A DNA stretch of 21,217 nucleotides from a plasmid, in the sequence record NZ_CP073098.1; one strand, written 5' to 3'. Below the pieces are notes generated by a model. It was not told the origin of the DNA. It did not search any database and worked only from the letters and a program-made list of their open reading frames with translations. Of this stretch, positions 2,324 to 18,715 are shown piece after piece. How positions within the stretch are numbered: position 1 is the stretch's first letter; each line of letters opens with the position of its first letter. A program made the translations under genes and the position numbers.

Positions 2324-2428
2324 AGACTCCTCCAGTCTTGCGTATGGTAAACATTGTTTACAAAGTGTCGATTAAACAATTCTATCGACAGTCCCAAGAG
2401 TGGCAGCAATAGTAAACAATGTTTACCA
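2324..2428. promoter_or_regulatory. Operator/promoter cluster with 15-bp palindromes GTAAACA-N-TGTTTAC (two copies) and two further inverted repeats
   Basis: Palindrome copies at 2347..2361 and 2412..2426. Inverted repeat TGTCGAT-N11-ATCGACA at 2366..2390. Inverted repeat AGACT-CCTCC-AGTCT at 2324..2338. All lie between the divergent membrane-protein and RHH genes. Confidence 0.5.
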
Positions 2429-2453
2429 TGCTGCCAAGGAGAGGATACTTCAT

Positions 2454-4052: not shown

Positions 4053-4107
4053 ACCGAACGCAGAAGACTAGCGCCCTCCGGGGCGCTTTCTTTTTACCCA
4101 AAACAGC

Positions 4108-4342
4108 TTGCGCATATTTACCGATACGCCTGCGCATATTTACGCATACGAAAAAAGGGCCTGCGCATAAGTTGACACACACGCCTGCGCATAAGTTGAC
4201 ACATGACAGGTTTTCCCAGTTCAGGATGCGCATAAGTTGACACACGCAAAATAGCCCTGCGCATAAGTTGACACACGCCTGCGCATAAGTTGACACACGC
4301 CTGCGCATAAGTTGACACACGCCTGCGCATAAGTTGACACAC
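4108..4342 (+). repeat. Iterons: 7 full and 2 degenerate copies of a 22-bp unit (g)CCTGCGCATAAGTTGACACAC, including 4 perfect tandem copies at 22-bp phase
   Basis: Full copies at 4160, 4184, 4227, 4256, 4278, 4300 and 4322. Degenerate copies TGCGCATATTTAC at about 4109 and 4130. Confidence 0.85.
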
Positions 4343-6857: not shown

Positions 6858-6903
6858 GCACCCACCAGCGCAAATACTAACCACGGAAGCCCATGCGGGT
6901 GGG

Positions 6904-6976
6904 CATATGCTTTAGCATATGGCGGAACATACGCTATAACATATGTCTAAATATATGTCCTGCCATATGGCAGGAC
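6904..6976 (+). repeat. About 73-bp repeat element, copy 1, ending in the 20-bp palindrome GTCCTGCCATATGGCAGGAC (6957..6976); contains 4 CATATG cores
   Basis: Direct repeat of 7651..7723, with about 6 mismatches over 73 bp. Confidence 0.7.
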
Positions 6977-7147
6977 TCGCAGGCGCACAGAGGTGGGCGC
7001 ACGATTACGCATATTCCCGCCCGCAGCAGAGAAAAAGGGGGCTACAGGCTCAGTGTGGGAGTATTGCGAAACTGTCGTGCGCGCATTAGTCTAAAATGTG
7101 ACAGCACAGTTCACCTTTGAATTGCGGCTGCACAATAAAAATAACCC

Positions 7148-7185
7148 CAACCGACCACGAATCGGCTGGAGTTATCGGACCTAAA
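7148..7185 (-). terminator. Possible minus-strand intrinsic terminator (CCAACCGA/TCGGCTGG stem, then GGUUAUUUUUAUU)
   Basis: Imperfect 8-bp stem with one mismatch plus U-rich tail. No annotated minus-strand gene lies directly upstream. Confidence 0.3.
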
Positions 7186-7650
7186 GGCCCATGTGAAGCA
7201 TCGCTGTAACGAGCTTCACGATTACGGTCACAAGAACTATGACCTTGGTAGCCACATCGAGCCAGTCAAGCTTGGTGGCATCAAGGTCTTTTCTTTTGCG
7301 ACCGGGCGCTTCCAATGAGTGTCTACCCATCGGTCACCTCCCTAACGTCGTAGGGTTGTCCACTCGCCTAATAGGCGCGCAGAACAGCCCACGTACACGC
7401 GCGGACCTAACCGCGCACCGACGAGGGAGCCACGCCCACACCCAGCGGGGTGTGGTTGTGAACCAGCACTAACGCTAGCAGCTGCACCTGACGAGGCCTA
7501 GAAGCATGATTCCACCCCTCCCTTGTAAAAGCCGTCCACGAGGCAAAATGCACACAGAGTCACTCGTAGCCGCGCTCAAGTCCGTCAATGTCTTCGTCCA
7601 GCACCCTAGCTAGACGCACGAAAGAGCAGTTAGCTCTACACATTACTGGA

Positions 7651-7723
7651 TATATGCTTTCGCATATGGCGGAACATACGCTATAACATATGCCTAAGCA
7701 TATGTCCCGCCATATGGCAAGAC
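7651..7723 (+). repeat. About 73-bp repeat element, copy 2, ending in the palindrome GTCCCGCCATATGGCAAGAC (7704..7723)
   Basis: Direct repeat of copy 1, 747 bp downstream. Confidence 0.7.
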
Positions 7724-7785
7724 ATATCACGCCCTCCTAGGGCTGGTGTGAGATGAGCTTTTCGTAATTGGCAAACAATAGCTCC

Positions 7786-7825
7786 CATAAAACTATGTCC
7801 CCCAAAAATAGCTTGGGGGACATAG
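7786..7825 (-). terminator. Intrinsic terminator for the minus-strand 8545→7922 two-gene unit
   Basis: Perfect 13-bp stem CTATGTCCCCCAA/TTGGGGGACATAG at 7793..7825 with a 7-nt loop, followed on the minus strand by UUUU. Confidence 0.5.
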
Positions 7826-7921
7826 TAGGCGGCGTCCATCTCACTCATCTTAGAAGCATTACTGAGCAACAGTACTAAATCCAGAAGAGCAGAGAATGAA
7901 GGAAGCCAATACAACAAGTGG

Positions 7922-8158
7922 TTAGCGGTCGTCGACTGGAGTCTTCTTCTCGAATAGAGGACCGGAGAAAATAAAGGCAAGAATCAAAAGTACAGTTCCA
8001 GTTCCCACTAGAAGTAAAGGAATGACGCCGTTACCGGATTGTTGCCCAGCGTCTGCGTCACTGGCAGACATTCCCGCACTAAACAAAAAACCTCCAGCAG
8101 AGAGCATAATTAGGCCTGAGATTCCTGCTAGCAGTACCGGCCATAGTGCGCGATTCAA
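7922..8158 (-). CDS. Small membrane protein (2 TM), low-GC cassette gene
   Basis: TTG start at 8158 with GAAGGAG RBS 9 nt upstream. Hydrophobic segments PVLLAGISGLIMLSAGGFLF and VIPLLLVGTGTVLLILAFIF. Confidence 0.5.
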   Translation of the reverse strand: MNRALWPVLLAGISGLIMLSAGGFLFSAGMSASDADAGQQSGNGVIPLLLVGTGTVLLILAFIFSGPLFEKKTPVDDR

Positions 8159-8176
8159 AGAATACGCTCCTTCTCG

Positions 8177-8545
8177 CTATGGATTACATAGAGCAACAAC
8201 AGTTTTATTATACCCAACATCTGGACGCCAGCTTTCTAGATTCCAGGGATCCTTGAATCCAGCGTTCGAGATATGGCATGAGAGCTGATCACGCATATTT
8301 TGCCCATGAAGATGCGCTGGTGTCTTTCGCGTGTACTCATCCCACATTTCATTGTGCAGCTTATCGGAGGTAGCAGCATTATTCGGATAATTTCGGCCTC
8401 CCTTGTGATGCACGTGTACGCGCTCTCCTTGAGGAGTGTTCTCGACGTCTACATTAGTGAAGTAGTCCTCCATAGCTTGAGCCTGAGCCGGAACAATCAA
8501 CGCACCCGTAATAGCAGCTGCTGCCAACTTATTTTTCAGCTTCAT
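8177..8545 (-). CDS. Small secreted protein (Sec signal peptide MKLKNKLAAAAITGALIVPAQAQA), unknown function
   Basis: Clear n/h/c signal peptide with AQA cleavage motif. Located in a low-GC (about 45 %) segment. Confidence 0.6.
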   Translation of the reverse strand: MKLKNKLAAAAITGALIVPAQAQAMEDYFTNVDVENTPQGERVHVHHKGGRNYPNNAATSDKLHNEMWDEYTRKTPAHLHGQNMRDQLSCHISNAGFKDPWNLESWRPDVGYNKTVVALCNP

Positions 8546-8730
8546 TGAAATCCTTCCTAAGCGAACGCGAAGCTTACATATAGAACGCTATGAAATGAGA
8601 ATGAAGCTGCACAACAAACTAGCTATGAATTCTTGGTAAAGTCTTTCTCTGTTCGTTAATGATGCAGAAAGCCTTTGGTAACCGTGCTTCTTTAAAGATA
8701 AGAAAGCATTTCATGATGAAGTACGGCGTG

Positions 8731-8756
8731 GCATATGTCCCGCCATATGGCGGGAC
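8731..8756 (+). repeat. Third copy of the palindromic core GTCCCGCCATATGGCGGGAC (perfect 20-bp palindrome, 8737..8756), 38 bp downstream of the resolvase stop
   Basis: Matches the right ends of the repeat copies at 6957 and 7704. The left flank GCATAT is also shared. Confidence 0.7.
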
Positions 8757-8794
8757 TGACGGGTGCGCATAGTTACCCTCACAGCTGCGCCGCT

Positions 8795-9388
8795 TTAGGC
8801 GTTTTTCAACGCCCGATACACCGTAGGACGGGTCACCCCGAATTCCCGCGCCAAGACTGCTTTCGACTCCCCCGCCAGCACGCGCCGCTTAATCTCCGCC
8901 ACCTGCTGCGGGCTAAGAGCAGGCTTGCGGCCTTTGTACTTGCCAGCCTTTTTGGCCAGCGCAATCCCCTCTGCTTGGCGTTCGCGGATAATGGCCCGTT
9001 CAAACTCCGCGAAGCTACCGAGAATGCCGAGCATTAAATCTGCGCGGGGATCTGTGGTGTCTTTCGCAAACGCGAGATTCTCATGCAGAAAAGTAACAGT
9101 CACGCCCTTGCCGGTAAGTTCATCAACAATACCGCGCAAATCCGTAAGCGAACGGGCGAGACGATCAATCGACGACACAACGAGCTCGTCCCCGTCGCGC
9201 ACATACGCCATACACTCGACAAGCCCAGGGCGCGCAGTCTTAGTACGTCCGGAAATCTTATCTTCAAAAAACCGGTCAATCCTGCCAGAAGCATTGAGTA
9301 GTTCTTTCTGACGCTGATTATTCTGCTCCACCGACGAGACACGGATATAGCCCACCCGCTGCCCATGTGAACCGGAGTCATTGGCCAT
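8795..9388 (-). CDS. Serine recombinase (resolvase/invertase family) with C-terminal HTH
   Basis: N-terminal GYIRVSSVEQ catalytic-Ser motif, then RLARS, then the C-terminal HTH REFGVTRPTVYRAL. Confidence 0.9.
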   Translation of the reverse strand: MANDSGSHGQRVGYIRVSSVEQNNQRQKELLNASGRIDRFFEDKISGRTKTARPGLVECMAYVRDGDELVVSSIDRLARSLTDLRGIVDELTGKGVTVTFLHENLAFAKDTTDPRADLMLGILGSFAEFERAIIRERQAEGIALAKKAGKYKGRKPALSPQQVAEIKRRVLAGESKAVLAREFGVTRPTVYRALKNA

Positions 9389-9654
9389 TAGTCTTCGCCC
9401 CGCGAGGGTGTAAAGGCAGCATTCTCCTGGGCAATGACCGCATCACGATACGACTCAACCACCCGCGCCAAGTCAGACAACTGTGCCCCGTCGAGACCAT
9501 CAGCGTCCGCAAGCAAAGACTGCACAATCCTGCCCAACGCCTGCTGCCCCGACGACAACCCACCATGCAGATCTTTCACCCGCGCCAACGCGGGCACAGA
9601 GTCAATATGACTTTCAATATGGAAACCATCAGACGACAACACCACACTCACCAC
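9388..9654 (-). CDS. Hypothetical 88-aa protein translationally coupled to the resolvase (TAATG overlap)
   Basis: GTG start with no RBS. Codon usage is similar to the resolvase. Its stop overlaps the resolvase ATG. Confidence 0.35.
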   Translation of the reverse strand: MVSVVLSSDGFHIESHIDSVPALARVKDLHGGLSSGQQALGRIVQSLLADADGLDGAQLSDLARVVESYRDAVIAQENAAFTPSRGED

Positions 9655-9846
9655 TTTCTGTAAACATAAGGCCTAGACCCTCCTAGACACGTGTAAAACA
9701 ATGCTAGGAACGGCCCTATTTTACAGGAAATATTCTGCTACACACCGGCGTAACAATAGGGTGTACCCCATTGTTTAGTAATGGTGTCCTCTACTTTGGG
9801 CGATTGCTTTCAAATGCTGGGCGCAGGGACAACAATTCTGGAAAAG

Positions 9847-10827
9847 CTAGTTTTGGATCTCTTCTTGGCGAAGCTGATCGAAGACGCTACCGGCGTAATC
9901 CTCGTCGAGGATGAAACCGTTGTCGGTTTCTTTGAGAACTCCTTCTTTGACTCTGCGATCCCACCACATGATTAAGGATGCGAGCGTGTAGCCGAGTTCG
10001 TATTTCTGACCAGGAACTATAAATGAGTTCTTCATGAGTTCTGGGAAGGTTAGTATTTGTCCTTCTCGGCCTCCGTTGGCAAATGTTTCAGGATCGTGTT
10101 GGGGCTCAATATGCTGAACAATCCAGTACACAACGTCGTAAAAGGTTCGACTTTCAGGGCTATTCTCGGTGATTATTGGATTTAAATCTTTGGTGATGAG
10201 CTCTGTAGCCTGCTTTAAAAGCTTTTCGATTCCTGGTGTTGGAGTGGCAGATATCGCCTTTCGGAGAGGTTCAGAAAGTGAGCCATATCGAACACCATTG
10301 ATCCCGATGTTATCCGGCTCTGCATCTTCAACCGTTTCTTCTTGGTCTGGGTAGGGGCCTAGCTTAGACAAGAATGCGTCGACTGATTCTGCAACGGGCA
10401 TGATGATCCCATCGGGATCGGTATCCACGTACAATACGGCGCCTTCTGGGAAATCTGGCAAGCCGTAGTTAATGACAAAGCATTGATGCATTCCGTCTTC
10501 GCTAGCAGCCAAGAGAAGGACTTCTTCGGGAATCTCCCACTCATCCATAAGGAAGGTTGCGTAGTCAATCAAATCAACATGAGCGCCATTGCTTGCTGTG
10601 CCGTTGCCGAAGATATCTTCAACAACGACCTCCAAGGTGTCCCCATCAGGCAGGGAAATATCTGTAAGGAAGCATTTTTCTAGGTTGAGGATGCCGCCTC
10701 CAGTTTCTGAAAGCAGCATCTTGTAATCATCAGGTAGCTTTTTGCCAAGCTTGCTTTCAAATTCAAGGATGCGTTGACTGTCTGCTGGCTGTGCAGTGTA
10801 CTCAAAAAGGTTGGCGTAGTTTTTCAT
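9847..10827 (-). CDS. SUKH-1 (SMI1/KNR4) family immunity protein with an extra C-terminal domain of unknown function (326 aa)
   Basis: N-terminal signature ILEFESKLGKKLPDDYKMLLSETGGG (ExxLG..LP..Y..L....GG). It sits 9 nt downstream of the toxin gene stop. Confidence 0.8.
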   Translation of the reverse strand: MKNYANLFEYTAQPADSQRILEFESKLGKKLPDDYKMLLSETGGGILNLEKCFLTDISLPDGDTLEVVVEDIFGNGTASNGAHVDLIDYATFLMDEWEIPEEVLLLAASEDGMHQCFVINYGLPDFPEGAVLYVDTDPDGIIMPVAESVDAFLSKLGPYPDQEETVEDAEPDNIGINGVRYGSLSEPLRKAISATPTPGIEKLLKQATELITKDLNPIITENSPESRTFYDVVYWIVQHIEPQHDPETFANGGREGQILTFPELMKNSFIVPGQKYELGYTLASLIMWWDRRVKEGVLKETDNGFILDEDYAGSVFDQLRQEEIQN

Positions 10828-10836
10828 GATTGTCCT

Positions 10837-13800
10837 TTACGATTCGAGGGGTTTACTCCATAAAGCATATCCACCGGTATGTCGCACCTGTTGGTGGAGT
10901 TCCTTTGGTATTAGCTGCATGCGATTTTCGTCTTCGTGGTGGTGCCAAACAAGTTCATGCTTCTTACGATATTCACGATCGATTCCGAACTGTTTATCTG
11001 CTTGACGGATGTCTTTCCAGCTTTTTCCTGTGGGTTTTTTAAGTTTGATGTCCCCAACACCCTGTGTCGGGTGTGTATGTACATGCTTGTCAAAAACTGG
11101 AAAACCGCGTTCTGTAAATCGAATGTCCCCGTATTTTTCATGGAATCCTGGTGGCATCTTAGCTGGATCACCATTTCGCCAAATCCCGTCTGCAAATTGA
11201 GCGTTGATCGGATAGCGGTTAGATGCTCCAACTCTTTTGACAGTCGAGGGATATTTGCACTTGGAAGCAATGGTTGCGTAGGAGTGTGCTCCTGGCGCTG
11301 GAGTGTGGTACACACCTGAGCGAATGGTCATATGCTGGTTTCGGTAAGTAGCAACTCCCAGTCCAGCACAAGCGGCTGGTATTAGTGCGTCGTCGAGTGC
11401 AGCTTTGACCGGAGAATATTGAATAGCGCGTTTAATGGCGCCAGTTTTTCCAATCAGCTTACGGATTGCAGGTATAGCCTTGATGAGCTTTCCTGCTTTT
11501 CCTATAGGAAGTAGGCCGACTGCTGTCCATAAACATCCCGACACTTCACCGTGGAAGCATTTTAAGACATCGGTAACGCCAATGAGATCAAGGATGAGGT
11601 CTAGGCTTTCTTTTCCAATAGCGTCTTTAATTTTCTGTAAAACGCTTGTTGGTTCCGTTTTTATAAGGCCTTCGGCTTTTGCTGAGCGGGCTTGCTCTAG
11701 TTCTGCCATTTCTTTTTCCCAGGCGGCAAAATAAGCGTCATTAGCAGCTTGGGATGCTAAAGAAGCATCTTGCCCTGCAGCGTTTGCTGATTGACGTGCA
11801 GAAGCTGCGGACGTAGCCGCGGCCTGTGCCGCTGATTGTGCAGTCGCTGCGTAGGACGCAGCTTGATCTGCATTGGATTCAGCCTGATTTGCATCTGCCT
11901 CTGCTGAATTTGCTGCCTGATGGGCTCGCTGTTGTTGTTGGAGAGCGAAGGAAAGTGCTTTATCAGCAGACGCAACATGATTTTGAGCCTGTTGCGCTGA
12001 TTGCTGTGCGCTTCCTGCCCAACGTTGAGCTTGACGTGCATATTCTGCAGCGCGCTGCGCGTCACCAGTTGCCTGTTTGTGCGCCTGCTGAGCATTAGCT
12101 GCTTGTTGTGACGCTATTTCTGCGGCATACTGTCCAGCACTGAGTAAAGCGTCTATTTCTGCATTATGAGCATTGCGTTGCTCGTCCAGCATCGCACGGC
12201 GATACTGCTCAACTGAGATGAATTCATTGAGCTGCTGGCGATCGCCAGTAACTGCCGCCTCAGCTGCAATCTTTACTTCTTCACCGCCAGTATCAGTTAA
12301 TGCATAAGCCTGCTGAAGTTGATCTAAGTAGCGGGCTTTTTCGTAGCCTCCCTTGTTGATGAATTCGTCCAACGCGGTAAACGTTCCCTCTTTGAGGGCC
12401 GCGTCAGCTGCAGTTTGAACCTGCGGTCCTGCTTCATCTCTTAAAGCCCAGGCTTGTTCAATAAGTCCAGGAATACGCATTTCTGGAACTGTCACGTTGA
12501 CGAATTCATCGATAGTTACGTCATCTTCATAGCCGGCTTCATCAGCAGCGTTACGTATTTCTTCGTTGGGATCGTTCAGTGCCCAATGGCTGACTAGATT
12601 TAGGTTGTCTTCATATACTGCATCTGGGTATGCATTAAAAGCATATTCAATAAGGTCTTCTTCATTGTTTCCCGAAAGTGCCACTTTGGCTGCCCCTGCT
12701 ACAGACGGGGTACCAACCTGCGCCGCGCTTAGCGCAAGTTGGCGAAGATCAGATATTGCGTTTTCGGAAGGAGTAAATTCGCTTTCGTCGGCTGGAAGAG
12801 AAGAACGTATCTCTTCCATTTTCTGAGTTAGATCATTTCTGCGTTGTTCTTCTTGATTCCTATTTGCGTCTGTGGTGTCTTGAACTTCGCGTGCAAGTCG
12901 AGCTTGGTCTTTAAGGAAATCCCGTTCTGTGCGAAGTCGTTCTTCGGCAGCGGTTAATGCTTGCTCGTGGATAGATTTAGCAAGCTGGATGTTGTTTCGT
13001 GCTCGTTCTGCAGATTCACTAGAAAGCTGAGCGTGTTGCCCTGCAAATTGTGCTGCATAGTGAGCATTTCCTGCTTCACGAGCAGCATCATCTGCTGCTC
13101 GTGCTGATTTTTCGGCATGCTCTGCAGCTTCTCTAGCAGCTTTGCGGGTTTGCTCTACCAGGCTACGGATAGTGGCGACTATCCGGTCAACTTCGTTAGC
13201 TGCTGCCCTGGCACGTCCTGCTGCTGCTCTAGCGCGTGCGGCGCCTGCGCGAGCTTCATTCGCCGCCTGCTGGCTAACGCCTGCTGCATTAGCTGCATCT
13301 GAGGCTGCAGCTGCGGCTGCGTCCGCGTTACGGGCAGCTGATCCTGCTGCCTGACCTGCAGATTGAGCATGTCCTGCAGCTTCCTCCGCGTAGCGATAGG
13401 CCTGTTGGGATTGTTGTGCAGCCTGGGCTGCATTGCGGGCATTCTCGGCAGCTACCCGCGCCCCACGTGCTGCAGCGGCATCGTAAGCTGCAGCATTTGC
13501 GGCAGAAGCTGCTTGTGCTGCTGCGGACTGAGCGCGAGCAGAAGCTGCCGCAGCTCTTGATAAAGCAGCAGCAGTCTCTTGAAGGGCAGCTCGCGCCTCA
13601 TGAGATGCGGCTACAGCTTGATCTGCCATATTGGCTGATTGAGTAGCTAATTTTCCAGCTGCTGTTGCAGCATTACCTGCTCTTTGTTGCGCAGAATCTG
13701 CTGCTAAAGCTTCATCGCGTGAACGTTCTGTTGCAACTCGTGCAGCTTCTGCGGCTCGCGCTGCACGATCCGCTTGCATCCATGCTTTGTTATTTTCCTC

Positions 13801-14580
13801 TGTAGCTGTCTTAGATTCTTTAATCGTAAGATCTACCAGTTGGGATACCGTCATATGCTCAGCATCTTGATCAGCGGCCACATACTGCCCATAACGAAGA
13901 AATTCGTCAATTGCTGTATCTGTGCCAATTCGGAGTGCCTCAGATGCGTTCGCGGAAACAGTTGGTAATTCTGAGTCTACGAGCTCGTAGACTTCCCTGC
14001 GCTTATCGTTTGCCCGAGCCTCATCCTCACCCTGGGCGGCAAATTCACTGAGAGCTTCTACTGTGTCCTCGCGCAGAGCTTTATCAGCAGCGGATTTTAG
14101 ACTTGTTCCTTCTTCAGCTTGAGCTGCCTGCCACGCTTGAGCTCTATCGTCTTTACGTTGAGCTTCTTGCCATCCAGTATCAATAAACTTGCTTATCTCA
14201 TCAGTCGAACCCGATTGAAGGAGACGATTTGCTTGCTCTTGTAGCTGCTGTCCACCAACTGTTGACAAGGTAGTAAGTATTTGGCGCAGATCTTGTAGCT
14301 GTGCTTCTTCGCGACCGCCATTAACATACGCAGACCACTCGTGTTCCGATCCGCTTAGTGCAGTAATTGCTGCTTGACGCGAAGACTCGAAAGAAGTATC
14401 GAGCATGCTCACCGCGAAGTCACGTGCGTCTTGTTCTTGTAGAGCTTGCTCGGAAACTCTTAAACTGTCAGTTTGAGCTATAGCATTTGCTGAAGAAAAC
14501 GTTGTTCCCAAGATAACTGCAAGTAAGACGCAAACAATGCGAACCATTTTTAATTGCAGAGGAGTTGTTTTGCGTGGCAT
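10837..14580 (-). CDS. Secreted polymorphic toxin: Sec signal peptide, ALF-like repeats, two Ala/Gln-rich helical blocks, pre-toxin region, and a C-terminal WHH-type HNH/EndoVII nuclease domain
   Basis: 1247-aa ORF. N-terminal signal MPRKTTPLQLKMVRIVCVLLAVILGTTFSSANAIAQ. Seven [AT][LI]xEF[ILA] repeats, e.g. TAIDEFLRYGQY, TALDEFINKGGY, QLNEFISVEQY. C-terminal HELVWHHHEDENRMQLIPKELHQQVRHTGGYALW. Confidence 0.85.
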   Translation of the reverse strand: MPRKTTPLQLKMVRIVCVLLAVILGTTFSSANAIAQTDSLRVSEQALQEQDARDFAVSMLDTSFESSRQAAITALSGSEHEWSAYVNGGREEAQLQDLRQILTTLSTVGGQQLQEQANRLLQSGSTDEISKFIDTGWQEAQRKDDRAQAWQAAQAEEGTSLKSAADKALREDTVEALSEFAAQGEDEARANDKRREVYELVDSELPTVSANASEALRIGTDTAIDEFLRYGQYVAADQDAEHMTVSQLVDLTIKESKTATEENNKAWMQADRAARAAEAARVATERSRDEALAADSAQQRAGNAATAAGKLATQSANMADQAVAASHEARAALQETAAALSRAAAASARAQSAAAQAASAANAAAYDAAAARGARVAAENARNAAQAAQQSQQAYRYAEEAAGHAQSAGQAAGSAARNADAAAAAASDAANAAGVSQQAANEARAGAARARAAAGRARAAANEVDRIVATIRSLVEQTRKAAREAAEHAEKSARAADDAAREAGNAHYAAQFAGQHAQLSSESAERARNNIQLAKSIHEQALTAAEERLRTERDFLKDQARLAREVQDTTDANRNQEEQRRNDLTQKMEEIRSSLPADESEFTPSENAISDLRQLALSAAQVGTPSVAGAAKVALSGNNEEDLIEYAFNAYPDAVYEDNLNLVSHWALNDPNEEIRNAADEAGYEDDVTIDEFVNVTVPEMRIPGLIEQAWALRDEAGPQVQTAADAALKEGTFTALDEFINKGGYEKARYLDQLQQAYALTDTGGEEVKIAAEAAVTGDRQQLNEFISVEQYRRAMLDEQRNAHNAEIDALLSAGQYAAEIASQQAANAQQAHKQATGDAQRAAEYARQAQRWAGSAQQSAQQAQNHVASADKALSFALQQQQRAHQAANSAEADANQAESNADQAASYAATAQSAAQAAATSAASARQSANAAGQDASLASQAANDAYFAAWEKEMAELEQARSAKAEGLIKTEPTSVLQKIKDAIGKESLDLILDLIGVTDVLKCFHGEVSGCLWTAVGLLPIGKAGKLIKAIPAIRKLIGKTGAIKRAIQYSPVKAALDDALIPAACAGLGVATYRNQHMTIRSGVYHTPAPGAHSYATIASKCKYPSTVKRVGASNRYPINAQFADGIWRNGDPAKMPPGFHEKYGDIRFTERGFPVFDKHVHTHPTQGVGDIKLKKPTGKSWKDIRQADKQFGIDREYRKKHELVWHHHEDENRMQLIPKELHQQVRHTGGYALWSKPLES

Positions 14581-14592
14581 GCTCTTAGCCTC

Positions 14593-15486
14593 TTACTTTC
14601 CTGGAAGTGCTAACGCTTGGTCAATAAACCACACAGATTCAGCACTTTTGGATGAAGTTGTCGTTACGCCTTGGGAACCTCGTGTTGTCAGAACGCGAGA
14701 CTGGTTTAGAGCCGAAGACAATCGCGTTCCCGTAGGAGTTTCACTGACTGCGGAAGGACACCACGTAGCTCCTTGGGGAGAAGGGGAAGACAGTGCTGAT
14801 ACCGTTCCATTTGTTCGCATCGTCAGATATACGCCAGGATATGCAGCGGCCTCAAGCGATATGCATTGGGAGCCGTCTAAAGCTGGGACTACTTTAAATG
14901 AACCATCAAGTCGATCGTTAAACTTTGAGTTTCTATCAAGCGTGGATAGCTCAACCCCAGACCAAGAAAGACGAAGAATTCTTCCTGCTGCATTGCGCCC
15001 TGCAGAACGCAAGCTAACGACATTCGGGGACTCAGCGTCGATATCTAGATTTCCGGTTGCGGCTCCGGTAGAAGTCGCAACCGGCGTAACTTGAATTTCC
15101 ACAACGGTAGAACCACGGCGATCAACATCGATGTTTTGTACACCTCCGGGTTTAACGACACGCTGCCAGTAGACATCACCGCCAGGGAGTTTAAAAGCAA
15201 CCGCCACCGGTACTTTAAGCTCATTAACAATTCCGTAGGAACCGGTAATGTTAATCGCAACCCAACCAGTCTGCTTCGTCAAGAAAAAACAAGCTCGAGA
15301 GCCAGACAGGGAAGACGAATCGACACGAATGTATTCAGAAGACGTACCGCATTCCTTTTGGATAATCCCGCCATCGCCGGCAGTGATATCCACATCGTCT
15401 GCGCCCAATGCAGGAGATACGCCTAGATTCATAAACGCTAAACCAGAAAGTACGCCTGCAAAAAGACGTTTAAGAGAAAAGTTCAT
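14593..15486 (-). CDS. Secreted protein (signal peptide MNFSLKRLFAGVLSGLAFMNLGVSPALGADD), unknown function; second gene of the toxin operon
   Basis: ATG at 15486 with AAGGAAA RBS. The upstream GTG at 15510 is less likely. A 12-nt gap separates it from the toxin start. Confidence 0.7.
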   Translation of the reverse strand: MNFSLKRLFAGVLSGLAFMNLGVSPALGADDVDITAGDGGIIQKECGTSSEYIRVDSSSLSGSRACFFLTKQTGWVAINITGSYGIVNELKVPVAVAFKLPGGDVYWQRVVKPGGVQNIDVDRRGSTVVEIQVTPVATSTGAATGNLDIDAESPNVVSLRSAGRNAAGRILRLSWSGVELSTLDRNSKFNDRLDGSFKVVPALDGSQCISLEAAAYPGVYLTMRTNGTVSALSSPSPQGATWCPSAVSETPTGTRLSSALNQSRVLTTRGSQGVTTTSSKSAESVWFIDQALALPGK

Positions 15487-15515
15487 TATTTTCCTTAAAT
15501 TGAAGTACACCCTGC

Positions 15516-16820
15516 CTACTTAGACAGGGGAATATAGGTGGTTTTCGAAGAGTCAATGGTCGATCGCAAAGTGCCGGCGAACTTTCCCCAGATCTGCGAA
15601 CCAATGTGATCGGAGCTAAAAGGGCCCTGAACTTTAGAGGTTTGAGTTGGACCAAAAGATTCAATAATGAGCCGTACCCACGTTTTATCCGAGTCGGTAT
15701 AGGACGCCTTTGTCTCCTCATTGTCAAAAATGAGATCGTCTTCATCCGCAGAAGGCTCCGTAACCTCGTCGAAGCGAACATTGAGAACTCGGCCATCGCC
15801 TTCTGGATGATCATCGGTAGTGACTAAGGAGAAACCGTCATCAGAAATCCGATCCACGGTTACTTTGTTTTTAACTCCGCCCATACCTGTAAAAGTGCAT
15901 ACGGAGCCCTCGGTAATTTCGTCAGGACACCCTGAGAGAGGAAAGTACTTATCCATGTTTTGGATAACCTCTCGATAGACACCCGTTGCATGCCACCGCT
16001 TAAGTTCCGACTTGGAAAAGAGAGGGTAAACCTGACGGTAGCTAGAGATTTTCTTTTTATCGAACGAAGCTAAAGCCTTGCCAGTAGGTTCAAAATACTG
16101 AATAGATCCGCCCTGGAAATCCTGCTTTATGCCTCCGCCTGCAGCGTATTTTTCCGATGTGGGAAACTTCAACGAGCTACGCTCCCATCCCTGACTTCCC
16201 CAGAAATCCCGGATGGGGCCAGAAATACTATGGACCCCGCTAGCTTGTGACCAGTAGATAGATCCGCCTTGAAAATGGTTGTAGCGCCCAGTCTTTTCTG
16301 GGGTAAGCAACTCATCAGTGGTTGGGTACCCTAGCTCACCGGTCTCCCAGCCTTGCTGAGCCCATTTATCGCGAATGCCTCCCCACACTTGATGAGCATC
16401 AGTCTCTGGCGACCAGTAGATAGACCCGCCCTGGAAATGGTTAAACCGCCCCTTGCCATCAGGGGTCTTCAACTCATCGGTAATGGGATATCCCAAGGCT
16501 GCGCCTTCCCAGCCAAGATCTCCCCACTTATTGCGGATACGCCCACCCACCTGGTGAGCAATTCCATTATCTACACCAGCATGCCAGTAAATGGAGGCAT
16601 CCTTAGCGAACACCTGGAACCGACCATTATTTTTAGCTACACGCTCATCAGTTGTAGCGTCACCAAAAGTCTTCCACCCACCAAGCCGGTGATACGCCTC
16701 TTCAATACGACCACCAATCCAATGACCGTGAAAAACCTTGGCACTTGAAACACCAGCACCAGCAAAAGTAACACTTGCACATACCGCAATAGTTGCAGTC
16801 AACTTCTTAGCGAATTTCAT
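15516..16820 (-). CDS. Secreted LGFP-repeat protein (4 N-terminal LGFP cell-wall-binding repeats plus a C-terminal domain of about 200 aa of unknown function)
   Basis: Signal peptide MKFAKKLTATIAVCASVTFAGAGVSSA. Repeats such as LGYPTTDE…GRYNHFQGGSIYWS occur four times. ATG at 16820 with AAAGGG RBS. Confidence 0.8.
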   Translation of the reverse strand: MKFAKKLTATIAVCASVTFAGAGVSSAKVFHGHWIGGRIEEAYHRLGGWKTFGDATTDERVAKNNGRFQVFAKDASIYWHAGVDNGIAHQVGGRIRNKWGDLGWEGAALGYPITDELKTPDGKGRFNHFQGGSIYWSPETDAHQVWGGIRDKWAQQGWETGELGYPTTDELLTPEKTGRYNHFQGGSIYWSQASGVHSISGPIRDFWGSQGWERSSLKFPTSEKYAAGGGIKQDFQGGSIQYFEPTGKALASFDKKKISSYRQVYPLFSKSELKRWHATGVYREVIQNMDKYFPLSGCPDEITEGSVCTFTGMGGVKNKVTVDRISDDGFSLVTTDDHPEGDGRVLNVRFDEVTEPSADEDDLIFDNEETKASYTDSDKTWVRLIIESFGPTQTSKVQGPFSSDHIGSQIWGKFAGTLRSTIDSSKTTYIPLSK

Positions 16821-17116
16821 CCGTAGCCCTTTCACGCCACCGCTTTTAAGAACAGCTGAACACCAGATAATTGGCAGCCGGAGTTAGGGTATCGCTACGG
16901 TTATACACAGTCCATAGATATGTGTTTAGAAACTTTCTCTAAAACTAAATAATTCGCTAAAACGCCAGATAGACACATGTACAGACTCGATTTTCGCGTC
17001 TCGTGAAAGGCGGGCAGAATAACCTATATAAGGGGTATATATAACTCTAAACTAAACATTTACACTGCACATTCAGGCTGGGCAGTGTACACATTGCACG
17101 TCAACGATGCACTTAG

Positions 17117-17495: not shown

Positions 17496-17659
17496 CCTTC
17501 CGTCCGACTATGCGCCGGGGGAAGTGCGCTGCGGACACCCAAAACCATACCGCCTTACAGCGCGCCCGCAACCGCAGCAACCCTAGAGCTGAGATAACAA
17601 GCTAGGCCTACTCGGTGGAATTCCCTCGACAGGTGTTTAACTTCTAAAATTGTGGGATA

Positions 17660-17780
17660 CACATGTATACATATACGCATGTGTATACATGTGTATATGA
17701 TGAGTTCTTTTAACCTGGCCCCTATCTACGATAGTCATCCGCATAGCATGACATACACACATATGCATGTCGCTACCTGG
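17660..17780. promoter_or_regulatory. Candidate partition centromere / parA operator upstream of parA: palindromic TGTATACA at 17664..17671 and 17682..17689, a half copy TGTATAT at 17692, and related ACATAC/ATGCATG repeats at 17748..17775
   Basis: Repeated 8-bp palindromes directly upstream of parA. Confidence 0.4.
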
Positions 17781-18659: not shown

Positions 18660-18715
18660 AGTATGCATATGCGTATGTACGTGTATGCATACATACGTAT
18701 ACGGGTATATATCTT
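18660..18715. repeat. Second cluster of palindromic repeats (GTATGCATAC, GTATAC, CGTATGTACG) downstream of the partition genes
   Basis: Related to the TGTATACA repeats upstream of parA. Located between the parG-like stop and the traA stop. Confidence 0.35.

What the first reader, a model, noticed from the sequence alone, without database searches (positions are those of the whole stretch)
6904..8756. Three copies of a site-I-like palindrome (GTCCYGCC-AT-AT-GGCRGGAC) bracketing a non-coding segment and a low-GC gene cassette next to a serine recombinase
The 20-bp palindrome with a central AT-rich core occurs at 6957..6976, 7704..7723 and 8737..8756, all in the same orientation. The first two copies are embedded in about 73-bp direct repeats full of CCATATGG/GCATATGC sub-sites. 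That layout resembles resolvase res subsites I to III. The third copy lies 38 bp downstream of the resolvase gene. Segment 7724..8736 between copies 2 and 3 carries a secreted-protein gene plus a membrane-protein gene at about 45 % GC, with its own terminator. Segment 6977..7650 between copies 1 and 2 is non-coding. The arrangement looks like res-type sites used reiteratively to capture or excise cassettes, possibly in addition to multimer resolution. An alternative reading is that these are binding sites for another plasmid DNA-binding protein, such as the RHH protein or the 88-aa protein.
Basis: partly seen in the sequence, partly recalled or inferred. Interest (0 to 1): 0.7.

Follow-up and report, generated by a model that had tools for sequence, protein, structure and literature searches.

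The report
Phased CATATG repeats, not res sites
The three palindromes are real and belong to a conserved ~80-100-bp repeat that marks joints between swappable gene modules in Corynebacterium plasmids, but they are very probably not the neighbouring resolvase's recombination sites: a classical three-part res site lies on the other side of that gene.

Summary
The three palindromes and two 77-bp direct repeats are where stated and far beyond chance.

The res interpretation is not supported, for four reasons:
- A canonical-looking res (28-, 34- and 31-bp dyads) lies upstream of the p88-resolvase operon at 9659-9777.
- In 29 related loci homology breaks exactly at its site-I centre, with re-assorted flanks and one hybrid site I.
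- The same GGGTAYACCC core sits upstream of resolvases 57-64% identical.
- Four complete plasmids with this resolvase have the res block but no CATATG array, and pJA144188 has an array but no such resolvase.

Two details of the finding are wrong. The "non-coding" segment carries a conserved 49-aa gene. The low-GC DNA starts 62 bp past palindrome 2, inside a remnant of an MmeI-type restriction-modification gene.

The element does bracket modules across the family: that RM gene plus an 87-aa membrane protein gene, and the 49-aa-gene segment.

Best reading: a terminator hairpin for leftward genes joined to a phased hexamer array, probably bound by an unidentified protein, that acts as a module joint. 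Its function is not proven.

The parts
6900..6976 (.). Element copy 1: array of 6 CATATG-like hexamers at 12-bp period (6904, 6916, 6928 CATACG, 6940, 6952 TATATG, 6964). It ends in the perfect palindrome GTCCTGCCATATGGCAGGAC (6957-6976).
6977..6992 (.). Right-hand extension of the element (TCGCAGGCGCACAGAG), shared with copy 3 (about 70% identity over these 16 bases, 80% over the 40-nt repeat that includes the palindrome).
   Evidence: family D8; filled versus empty joint
6977..7646 (-). Conserved 'seg' module between copies 1 and 2, not non-coding. It holds a 49-aa ORF at 7181-7330 (basic N-terminus, hydrophobic C-terminus), the RBS GGGAGGTG, a terminator at 7176-7140, and about 320 bp of conserved upstream DNA.
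7647..7728 (.). Element copy 2: 7 hexamers (7651-7728), palindrome GTCCCGCCATATGGCAAGAC at 7704-7723. The array is also internally dyad-symmetric (arms 7652-7682 and 7697-7727).
   Evidence: (I5)
7724..7785 (-). Remnant of the 3' end of an MmeI-family type IIL restriction-modification gene (intact in pTP10, where its stop codon abuts the same palindrome).
   Evidence: (93.5% identity to L005/L006)
7786..8731 (-). Low-GC (45.7%) foreign insert that replaced most of the RM + 87-aa module and most of the third array. It carries a hairpin at 7793-7825, a 78-aa membrane protein gene at 7922-8158, and a secreted DUF2599 protein gene at 8177-8545.
8732..8772 (.). Element copy 3, truncated: two hexamers (8732, 8744), the perfect palindrome GTCCCGCCATATGGCGGGAC (8737-8756) and the shared right flank TGACGGGTGCGCATAG. 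It lies 38 nt after the resolvase stop and is the probable terminator hairpin of the p88-resolvase operon.
   Evidence: (D8)
8795..9388 (-). Small serine recombinase (197 aa; Resolvase N-terminal domain + HTH_7).
9388..9654 (-). p88: acidic 88-aa protein (pI 4.6), translationally coupled to the resolvase. No family match. Always found with the resolvase.
9750..9777 (-). Proposed res site I: TAAACAATGGGGTA|CACCCTATTGTTAC (28 bp; central AC at 9764/9763). The homology break in related loci falls immediately 5' of this AC.
9692..9725 (-). Proposed res site II: TGTAAAATAGGGCCGTTCCTAGCATTGTTTTACA (34-bp dyad).
9659..9689 (-). Proposed res site III: TGTCTAGGAGGGTCTAGGCCTTATGTTTACA (31 bp; weaker dyad). 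It ends 4 nt before the p88 GTG start codon (9654).

Best explanation
The palindromes are parts of a family-specific intergenic element of about 80-100 bp, found in pNG2/pTP10-type Corynebacterium plasmids and their chromosomal remnants. The element has two components.

It lies 38-45 nt after the resolvase stop codon, or about 12 nt after the stop of the MmeI-type RM gene. It most likely works as the intrinsic transcription terminator of those leftward (minus-strand) genes.

(2) A phased array of 3-7 CATATG hexamers spaced exactly 12 bp apart. The hexamers, and above all their central TA, stay fixed while the 6-bp spacers drift. I infer that an unidentified dimeric DNA-binding protein binds this array cooperatively. 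The protein is probably host-encoded, because no plasmid gene tracks the arrays.

Copies of the element sit, always in the same orientation, at the joints between interchangeable modules: the 49-aa-gene 'seg' module, the MmeI-RM + 87-aa membrane protein module, and the resolvase module. Over evolutionary time, modules have been gained, lost and re-ordered by exchange inside the array, just left of the hairpin. Exchange could run through the short homology or be assisted by the bound protein.

The neighbouring resolvase does not use these sites. Its cognate res is the three-dyad site at 9659-9777, upstream of the p88-resolvase operon.

In this window, the third copy is a stump. It was left when low-GC foreign DNA replaced most of an RM module and its right-hand array.

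Shown: the anatomy, distribution, co-occurrence patterns, exchange intervals and the res junction. Inferred: terminator function, protein binding and the exchange mechanism.
For: **res lies elsewhere**
- Upstream of p88 there are three dyads of 28, 34 and 31 bp sharing TGTAAACAAT-type half-sites.
- In 29 loci (21 distinct junctions, 19 different left flanks) mean pairwise identity is 0.28 at -40..-6 and 0.81 at +1..+40 relative to ..GGT|ACACCC.
- Flanks re-assort at that point: left X with right 1 and right 2, left Y with right 3 and right 2.
- L088 carries a pTET3-type left half-site joined to the pNG2-type right arm.
- GGGTATACCC (pTET3) and GGGTACACCC (Dietzia) lie 120-130 bp upstream of resolvases 64% and 57% identical.

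**Resolvase and arrays are separable**
- Complete plasmids L035-L038 have the resolvase (93-97% identity), p88 and the res block, but no palindrome and no array of 4 or more units.
- pJA144188 has an array but no such resolvase.

**Array properties**
- Among 31 distinct arrays (166 hexamers) the central TA is invariant. Spacers carry 0.1-0.9 bit per position.
- Divergent relatives keep the 12-bp register with different spacers. L106 lacks the GC palindrome entirely.
- Length varies in whole 12-bp units.
- No array arose in 300 simulations.

**Module joints**
- At least 10 left/right flank combinations occur.
- The MmeI + mem87 module is flanked by arrays on both sides in pTP10, L007, L016 and L030, even at 57-83% protein identity.
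- The pTP10 array equals the left part of L002 copy 1 joined to the right part of L002 copy 2.
- L020 is a hybrid whose exchange interval lies left of palindrome position 3.

**Terminator hairpin**
- The hairpin persists after the resolvase stop even in array-free L037 and in divergent L018 and L154 with changed arms.
- 89.8% of stem cells pair on the coding strand against 78.4% on the other. The two variable pairs are paired in 10/11 and 11/11 sequences against 6/11 and 5/11.
- The consensus scan flags copy 1 on the minus strand.
Against: - No binding protein is identified. Arrays track only with the RM/mem87 module, which encodes no obvious array binder.
- A purely passive origin, such as long target duplication followed by homologous recombination, is not excluded.
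- Hairpin covariation is modest: 15 of 500 shuffles reach the observed score, and there is only one pair with double changes. Copy 3 lacks a U-rich tail.
- The conservation statistics for hexamers are partly circular, because arrays were detected by their hexamers.
- Many site-I left arms in related loci keep only the inner TGGG and are poor half-sites. So some junctions may reflect recombination with secondary sites, or another process that ends at the same nucleotide.
- Nothing here measures binding, transcription or recombination.
Confidence: 0.5

Rival explanations
1. One reading: the CATATG palindromes or arrays are res-type sites, or secondary sites, of the adjacent serine recombinase. 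The recombinase uses them repeatedly to capture or excise cassettes.
For: - One copy lies next to the resolvase gene in most plasmids.
- All copies share one orientation, as resolvase deletion would need.
- The palindromic hexamers have a central TA.
- pTP10 and pNG2-type plasmids differ by exactly one module plus one element copy.
- Array units such as CTAAACATATG weakly resemble res half-sites such as CTAAACAATGG and GTAAACATAAG.
Against: - A complete classical res with crossover signature exists elsewhere.
- Four plasmids have the resolvase without arrays, and pJA144188 has an array without it.
- The array geometry (12-bp direct phasing, 20-22-bp palindrome) does not match the 28/34/31-bp dyads of that res.
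- The palindrome is inherited as a unit with its right flank, and the L020 hybrid exchanged left of it.
- Two full copies 747 bp apart are stably kept in many plasmids.
Confidence: 0.1
2. Passive repeat: the element has no function beyond a terminator hairpin. Copies arose as long target duplications when modules such as the RM gene inserted. Later shuffling is ordinary RecA-dependent recombination between 60-80-bp repeats, helped by resolution at res.
For: - RM modules flanked by long direct repeats are a described class (Furuta and Kobayashi, from memory; not checked here).
- The exchange intervals (19-42 bp of identity) are compatible with homologous recombination.
- No cognate protein gene was found.
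- The arrays are dispensable.
Against: - Strict retention of the 12-bp register and of the hexamers while spacers diverge, also in distant relatives, indicates selection on the array itself.
- Indels occur only in whole units.
- Much longer homologies nearby (resolvase gene, seg) would be better substrates, yet module boundaries coincide with the arrays.
Confidence: 0.2
3. The arrays are operator or centromere sites for a plasmid-encoded protein named by the reader (the RHH protein or p88) or for ParB78.
For: Phased short repeats are typical of RHH or ParB/ParR-type centromeres and operators (general knowledge). The window encodes an RHH protein and a ParA plus 78-aa ParB-like pair.
Against: - p88 is acidic, pI 4.6.
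- The RHH protein has its own GTAAACAWTGTTTAC palindromes at its promoter.
- The par locus has different TGTATACAT-type palindromes on both sides.
- All three proteins are present at 79-98% identity in array-free plasmids (p88 82-89%, RHH 72-98%, ParB78 86%), and pJA144188 has an array without any of them.
Confidence: 0.05
4. The arrays are Xer (dif-like) sites, and the modules are the Corynebacterium counterpart of Acinetobacter pdif modules.
For: - The modules are bracketed by short conserved sites and no recombinase gene is nearby.
- ATATGTCCCGC shares TATGTC with the Corynebacterium XerD arm TTATGTCAGAT.
- The exchange interval coincides with one spacer.
Against: - The best match of any array position to the Corynebacterium dif arms is 12/22. 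About 450 window positions do as well or better, and the top hits lie elsewhere.
- The 11-6-11 architecture with ATAA/TTAT inner arms is absent.
- Copies are direct, not alternating.
Confidence: 0.02
5. The element is a miniature inverted-repeat transposable element (MITE) that inserted at several intergenic sites.
For: - It is about 80 bp with 31-nt imperfect inverted arms (I5).
- Filled and empty sites exist at the exo-seg joint.
- It is intergenic, hairpin-forming and has no adjacent protein gene.
Against: - It was found in only 24 loci across 185,579 species genomes, always in this plasmid backbone context, at 1-2 copies, and always in one orientation.
- No clean target-site duplication is present.
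- Internal 12-bp periodicity with variable unit number is not MITE-like.
Confidence: 0.05

Closest known systems
Tn3 / gamma-delta-type res sites (three resolvase-binding dyads, crossover at site I)
   Same: The block lies upstream of the resolvase operon and has three dyads of 28, 34 and 31 bp. Centre-to-centre distances are 55 and 34.5 bp; gamma-delta is about 53 and 34.5 from memory. Evolutionary breakpoints fall at the site-I centre.
   Different: The CATATG element has none of this. It lies at the 3' end of the gene, consists of direct 12-bp phased hexamers, has no shared half-site consensus with the res, and is separable from the resolvase. The res itself has a non-palindromic central AC and an extra gene (p88) between res and resolvase.
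pdif modules of Acinetobacter plasmids (gene modules bracketed by XerC/D sites)
   Same: Small accessory modules (RM, small membrane or toxin-like genes) are bracketed by copies of a short conserved site, are shuffled between plasmids, and have no dedicated recombinase gene next to them.
   Different: The sites do not resemble Corynebacterium dif, are direct rather than alternating, and are phased hexamer arrays rather than 28-bp 11-6-11 sites.
Integron attC sites and gene cassettes
   Same: Tandem modules are separated by imperfectly palindromic, structure-prone sites of 60-100 bp in one orientation. In L106, three arrays alternate with single genes.
   Different: There is no integrase, no attI and no common promoter. 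The modules carry their own promoters and terminators, and genes point toward the site rather than away from it.
Phased iteron-type centromeres (for example 11-bp parC of R1, 12-bp tubC of pBtoxis; from memory)
   Same: Several short sites lie at a fixed period of about 11-12 bp, suited to cooperative binding of dimers. The number of units varies.
   Different: There is no adjacent partition operon. The window's par locus has its own different palindromes. Several copies occur per plasmid, and they are dispensable.
Restriction-modification genes flanked by long direct repeats (mobile RM units; Furuta and Kobayashi, from memory)
   Same: The MmeI-type RM + mem87 unit is flanked by 50-80-bp direct repeats in every intact case and appears in different genomic contexts.
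   Different: The same repeat also flanks a non-RM module and abuts the resolvase in plasmids without the RM unit (L029, L075, L154). It also has an internally conserved periodic structure.

Membership tests
Resolvase res site (tested on the CATATG palindromes/arrays) | Co-occurs with its cognate resolvase gene | tested here: not met
   Four complete plasmids have the resolvase (93-97% identity) and no palindrome or array. pJA144188 has an array and no such resolvase.
Resolvase res site (tested on the CATATG palindromes/arrays) | Dyad subsites built from a shared resolvase half-site, with site I of about 26-30 bp | tested here: not met
   The element is a direct 12-bp array. Its palindrome is 20-22 bp, and its motifs differ from the TGTAAACAAT half-sites of the res block.
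Resolvase res site (tested on the CATATG palindromes/arrays) | Evolutionary or experimental crossover at the centre of the palindrome | tested here: not met
   The whole palindrome is inherited with its right flank. The L020 hybrid and the pTP10/L002 comparison place the exchange left of palindrome position 3. This rests on only 2-3 events.
Resolvase res site (tested on the CATATG palindromes/arrays) | Bound and recombined by the resolvase | not testable with these tools
   Needs EMSA, footprinting and in vitro or in vivo recombination assays.
Resolvase res site (tested on the block 9659-9777) | Located upstream of the resolvase operon and conserved together with it | tested here: met
   It is present at 71-95% identity in every locus that has the resolvase with its upstream region, including the array-free plasmids.
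Resolvase res site (tested on the block 9659-9777) | Three dyad subsites with a common half-site and gamma-delta-like spacing | tested here: inconclusive
   Dyads of 28, 34 and 31 bp with TGTAAACAAT-like ends are visible. The half-site pattern alone is not statistically distinctive in the window, and site III is weak. The gamma-delta spacing is quoted from memory.
Resolvase res site (tested on the block 9659-9777) | Recombination breakpoints at the central dinucleotide of site I | tested here: met
   Identity jumps from 0.28 to 0.81 at GGT|ACACCC in 21 distinct junctions. Flanks re-assort, and L088 carries a hybrid pTET3-type/pNG2-type site.
Xer/dif-type site (pdif-like module boundary) | 11-bp XerC arm, 6-8-bp centre and 11-bp XerD arm resembling the host dif | tested here: not met
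   The best array score is 12/22 against Corynebacterium dif, no better than background.
Intrinsic transcription terminator (the palindrome alone) | GC-rich hairpin shortly after a stop codon, on the coding strand, with pairing kept through sequence change | tested here: inconclusive
   It lies 38-45 nt after the resolvase stop and about 12 nt after the MmeI-type gene stop. Pairing is 89.8% on the coding strand against 78.4% on the other, and G.U pairs form only on the coding strand. Covariation is modest. The U-tract is weak or absent in copy 3.
Plasmid partition centromere | Repeat array adjacent to, and co-inherited with, a par operon | tested here: not met
   The arrays are 9-10 kb from parA/parB78. 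The par locus has its own palindromes, and par-bearing plasmids L037 and L038 lack arrays.
Integron-type cassette array | Integrase gene with attI, and promoterless cassettes each ending in attC | tested here: not met
   No tyrosine recombinase is found in the window or next to arrays in related loci. The modules have their own expression signals.

The most novel reading that the evidence does not exclude
The phased CATATG arrays are the recombination sites of a so far undescribed module-shuffling system in Corynebacterium plasmids, functionally comparable to integron attC or Acinetobacter pdif sites. An unidentified, probably host-encoded, protein would assemble on the 12-bp-spaced hexamers. 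It would promote exchange just beside the terminator hairpin, moving defence (MmeI-type RM) and addiction-like (49-aa gene) modules between plasmids and into chromosomes.
Probability: 0.12. Interest if true: 0.75.

Novelty: new variant of a known kind. Interest (0 to 1): 0.38.

Why it matters
These plasmids (pNG2, pTP10, pJA144188, pET44827 and relatives) carry much of the transferable antibiotic resistance of clinical and skin corynebacteria.

Two points follow for annotation and for reconstructing plasmid history:
- The real res site shows clean evidence that resolvase crossovers have repeatedly re-joined backbones to different cargo.
- A second, different kind of joint exists, the CATATG array. 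It brackets a restriction-modification module and a small toxin-like gene.

If the arrays prove to be protein-bound recombination sites, that would be a new route of module exchange in Gram-positive plasmids. If they are only terminators plus duplicated DNA, the finding is ordinary. Either way, the attractive reading that 'res sites are reused as cassette sites' should not be propagated.

Tried and rejected
- **Xer/dif reading.** Prompted by TATGTC in the array and the pdif analogy. I took Corynebacterium dif from the supplement of PMC3025954 and scored the window. Arrays score 12/22, which is background. Rejected.
- **Rfam search of the window at E<=1.** Only spurious miRNA-type hairpin hits at palindromic DNA, and nothing in the conserved segment.
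- **Independent contexts for the low-GC cassette.** Exact-protein look-up returned only the same plasmid in three metagenomes. tblastn against PLSDB found only distant Bacillus and Enterococcus DUF2599 genes.
- **Metagenome scan with the bare periodic pattern.** Mostly unrelated repeats came back. Seven useful relatives were extracted.
- **Search for a recombinase or DNA-binding gene beside arrays** in chromosomal and divergent loci. Only IS transposases were found.
- **Gene/array co-occurrence matrix.** No DNA-binding gene tracks the arrays, only the RM/mem87 module.
- **Array as target of the adjacent MmeI-type enzyme.** The pTP10 host enzyme CstMI recognises AAGGAG (from memory), and no such site lies in the arrays. 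Dropped.
- **The truncated array in pTP10 and pJA144188 as a recombinase crossover product.** An IS-type transposase ORF and inverted-repeat end abut the break, so it is an IS insertion.
- **Literature.** The 2000 pTP10 and 2003 pNG2 papers are not held. The pET44827 paper only says that 'typical DNA sequence repeats' were described for the pTP10 resolvase region. My recollection that Sin site I has a GGGTACACCC centre could not be verified and is not used.
- **RNA folds of the arrays.** They are strongly negative but uninformative, because repeated self-complementary hexamers always pair.
Full report
**1. The observation**

The 20-bp palindrome GTCCYGCCATATGGCRGGAC occurs at 6957-6976, 7704-7723 (one mismatch) and 8737-8756. 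Nothing else in the window comes within three mismatches, and none is expected by chance. The first two copies end 77-bp direct repeats, 6900-6976 and 7647-7723, that are 90% identical. Ten of the window's sixteen CATATG sites lie in the three elements, against about four expected in the whole window.

CATATG-like hexamers start at 6904, 6916, 6928, 6940, 6952 and 6964, and at 7651 through 7723, always 12 bp apart. That gives 6 and 7 units. No run of three or more such units appeared in 300 simulated windows.

The third copy lies 38 bp beyond the stop of a 197-aa serine recombinase (8795-9388, minus strand). The DNA between copies 2 and 3 has 45.7% GC. It encodes a signal-peptide DUF2599 protein and a 78-aa membrane protein, followed by a hairpin.

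**2. Context**

The window is the backbone of a Corynebacterium plasmid of the pNG2/pTP10/pET44827 group. Its features are:
- an IncW-like RepA with 22-bp iterons;
- a DnaQ-like exonuclease;
- the resolvase, translationally coupled to an upstream 88-aa ORF (p88);
- a SUKH immunity gene and a 1247-aa polymorphic toxin;
- ParA with a 78-aa partner;
- a MobF relaxase.

**3. Two statements in the finding are wrong**

The segment 6977-7650 is not non-coding. It is conserved at 77-87% identity in pNG2, pET44827, pCs-Na-1 and many genome contigs. It contains a 49-aa ORF (7181-7330, minus strand) with the ribosome-binding site GGGAGGTG and a strong terminator.

The low-GC genes are not bracketed by the palindromes. 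The 62 bp immediately right of copy 2 (7724-7785) are the 3' end of a gene that is intact in pTP10. There its stop codon abuts the same palindrome. That gene encodes an MmeI-family type IIL restriction-modification enzyme. The foreign DNA therefore replaced the interior of an older module together with most of the third array. Only two hexamers and the palindrome were left.

**4. Where the resolvase's res site most probably is**

I aligned the 260 bp upstream of p88 from 16 loci. About 115 bp are conserved and begin abruptly at ...GGT|ACACCCTATTGTTAC. Everything beyond that point is unrelated between loci.

In the window this boundary is the centre of a 28-bp dyad, TAAACAATGGGGTA|CACCCTATTGTTAC (9750-9777). 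It is followed by a 34-bp dyad (9692-9725) and a weaker 31-bp one (9659-9689) that ends 4 nt before the p88 start codon. The centre-to-centre distances are 55 and 34.5 bp. From memory, gamma-delta res has about 53 and 34.5.

Over 29 loci there are 21 distinct junctions and 19 different left flanks. Mean pairwise identity is 0.28 at -40..-6, 0.62 at -5..-1 and 0.81 at +1..+40.

Flanks re-assort at exactly this nucleotide. One left flank occurs with two different right arms (L011/L023/L026 and L035). Another left flank occurs with two (L038 and L037), one of which is shared with the first. L088 joins a pTET3-type half-site (GTCTCAATAG) to the pNG2-type right arm.

The same core, GGGTATACCC or GGGTACACCC, lies 120-130 bp upstream of resolvase homologues that are 64% (pTET3) and 57% (Dietzia) identical.

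This is the pattern expected of site-I crossovers. One caveat applies: many left arms keep only the inner TGGG and look like poor half-sites.

**5. Resolvase and CATATG arrays are separable**

Four complete plasmids carry the resolvase at 93-97% identity, p88 and the res block, but no palindrome and no array of four or more units. They are pNY0527 of Winkia, a 10.7-kb C. tuberculostearicum plasmid, a 20.7-kb C. aurimucosum plasmid, and pCs-Na-1. Conversely, pJA144188 has an array but no such resolvase.

The other candidate binders fare no better:
- p88 is acidic, with pI 4.6.
- The RHH protein has its own palindromes, GTAAACAWTGTTTAC, around its start.
- The par locus has different palindromes.
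- All of these genes occur in array-free plasmids.

The only thing that tracks the arrays is the MmeI-type gene, its 87-aa membrane-protein neighbour, or remnants of them.

**6. What the element looks like across the family**

A scan of one genome per species found the core only in Corynebacterium (plus one MAG binned as Hyphomicrobiales): 24 loci, often two copies about 721 bp apart.

With all copies oriented alike, the right flank falls into three classes: the 49-aa-gene segment, the 3' end of the MmeI-type gene, and the 3' end of the resolvase gene. The left flank falls into at least five classes: the ends of the 87-aa gene, the segment, the exonuclease gene, the p334 side, and an IS insertion. 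At least ten combinations occur.

The RM + 87-aa module has an array on both sides in every intact case. This includes a version that is only 57-83% identical at the protein level.

Array length changes only in whole 12-bp units. In more distant relatives recovered from metagenomes the hexamers keep their register while the spacers change. In L106 three arrays alternate with single genes and have no GC-rich palindrome at all.

Over 31 distinct arrays (166 hexamers) the central TA never varies, and spacers carry little information. This statistic is partly circular, because arrays were found through their hexamers.

**7. Where exchange happened**

The single array of pTP10 equals the left part of copy 1 joined to the right part of copy 2 of pNG2-type plasmids. 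L020 combines the IS-truncated left part with the right part of another class. In both cases the exchange interval lies in the identical stretch CATATG-CCTAAA-CATATG-T, just left of the palindrome, and the whole palindrome travels with its right-hand gene.

This argues against crossover at the palindrome centre. It does not distinguish homologous exchange from protein-assisted exchange.

**8. The palindrome itself**

Among the 16 distinct sequences downstream of the resolvase stop, the hairpin is the retained feature. It persists in array-free L037, and in L018 and L154 the arms have changed.

On the coding strand of the adjacent genes 89.8% of stem positions pair, against 78.4% on the other strand. 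The two variable pairs are U.G, U.A or C.G in 10/11 and 11/11 sequences, against 6/11 and 5/11.

That asymmetry, together with the position 38-45 nt after the resolvase stop and about 12 nt after the MmeI-type gene stop, points to an intrinsic terminator for leftward transcripts. The covariation is modest, so this is an inference.

**9. Alternatives examined**

- **Xer/dif (pdif-like) reading.** Tested against the predicted Corynebacterium dif sequence and rejected.
- **MITE reading.** It fits the size and inverted arms. It does not fit the restricted distribution, the fixed orientation or the periodic structure.
- **Purely passive reading** (target duplication plus homologous recombination). 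It remains possible, but it does not explain why the 12-bp register and the hexamers are kept while the spacers diverge.

**10. Verdict**

The sequence feature is real and more structured than described. Its interpretation as res subsites of the neighbouring resolvase is not supported. The resolvase has a conventional res elsewhere, whose evolutionary crossovers are documented here.

The CATATG element is best described as a module-joint element: a terminator hairpin plus a phased, probably protein-bound, hexamer array. Its partner and mechanism remain unknown. I could find no account of their periodic structure, distribution or role.

Noticed in passing
window 9659-9777 (minus strand): A classical three-dyad res site lies upstream of the p88-resolvase operon. 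In 29 related loci homology breaks exactly at its site-I centre, with re-assorted flanks and one hybrid pTET3/pNG2-type site I. This is a clean comparative record of resolvase-mediated backbone and cargo exchange.
   Followed up: yes
window 7140-7646 (minus strand): A conserved 49-aa ORF (basic N-terminus, hydrophobic C-terminal helix; pI 9.8) has a strong RBS, its own terminator and about 320 bp of conserved upstream DNA. It could be a type I toxin-like or small membrane-protein module, and it also occurs without flanking arrays. There was no Pfam, NCBIfam or Rfam match.
   Followed up: partly
window 9388-9654 (minus strand): An acidic 88-aa protein of unknown family is translationally coupled to the resolvase (its stop codon overlaps the resolvase ATG) and always co-occurs with it. 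In pTET3 and Dietzia homologues the resolvase ORF is instead annotated with a long N-terminal extension. It could be a resolvase accessory or regulatory factor.
   Followed up: partly
window 7724-7785; L006 724-3576: The 'DNA methyltransferase' of pTP10 and pJA144188 is an MmeI-family type IIL RM enzyme with all five MmeI domains. Together with an 87-aa three-TM protein gene it forms a unit flanked by arrays, found on plasmids and in C. tuberculostearicum chromosomes. The window keeps only its last 62 bp.
   Followed up: partly
window 2344-2429: Two 15-bp palindromes, GTAAACATTGTTTAC and GTAAACAATGTTTAC, lie within a perfect 18-bp inverted repeat 50 bp apart, straddling the start of the RHH (RelB/CopG-like) gene. 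They are a likely autoregulatory operator. The GTAAACAAT motif resembles the res half-sites.
   Followed up: no
window 17657-17697 and 18663-18710: Alternating purine-pyrimidine palindromes (TGTATACAT / GTATGCATAC type) lie upstream of parA and downstream of the 78-aa parB-like gene. They are probable centromere sites on both sides of the par operon, and gave spurious miRNA hits in Rfam.
   Followed up: no
window 9847-16835 (minus strand): A polymorphic-toxin locus sits on a plasmid: a 1247-aa protein with ALF repeats and a C-terminal WHH/colicin-DNase nuclease, followed by a SUKH-family immunity gene, and preceded by an AbfB-domain protein and an LGFP-repeat protein. GC is about 46-50%.
   Followed up: no
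L004 4894-5133; also L022 and L119: In pET44827 and relatives a DUF3923 gene is inserted between the element and the resolvase 3' end. It removes the resolvase's usual hairpin and has no second palindrome. This is another small cargo gene at the same joint.
   Followed up: partly
L005 3040-4000; L006 560-650: The left-truncated arrays of pTP10 and pJA144188 are cut at the centre of the second hexamer. The cut is made by the end of an IS element (transposase ORF ending ...NNVPGHHT, with inverted repeat GGGCCTAACCC...GGGTTAGGCCC). The same truncated array is then found joined to a different right flank in L020.
   Followed up: partly
window 4107-4342: About nine 22-bp iterons (CCTGCGCATAAGTTGACACACG) lie downstream of repA, as described for pTP10 and pJA144188. 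An iteron-like piece (GGGCATATTTACGCATACGAA) turns up next to the resolvase 3' end in pCs-Na-1, where the array is missing.
   Followed up: no
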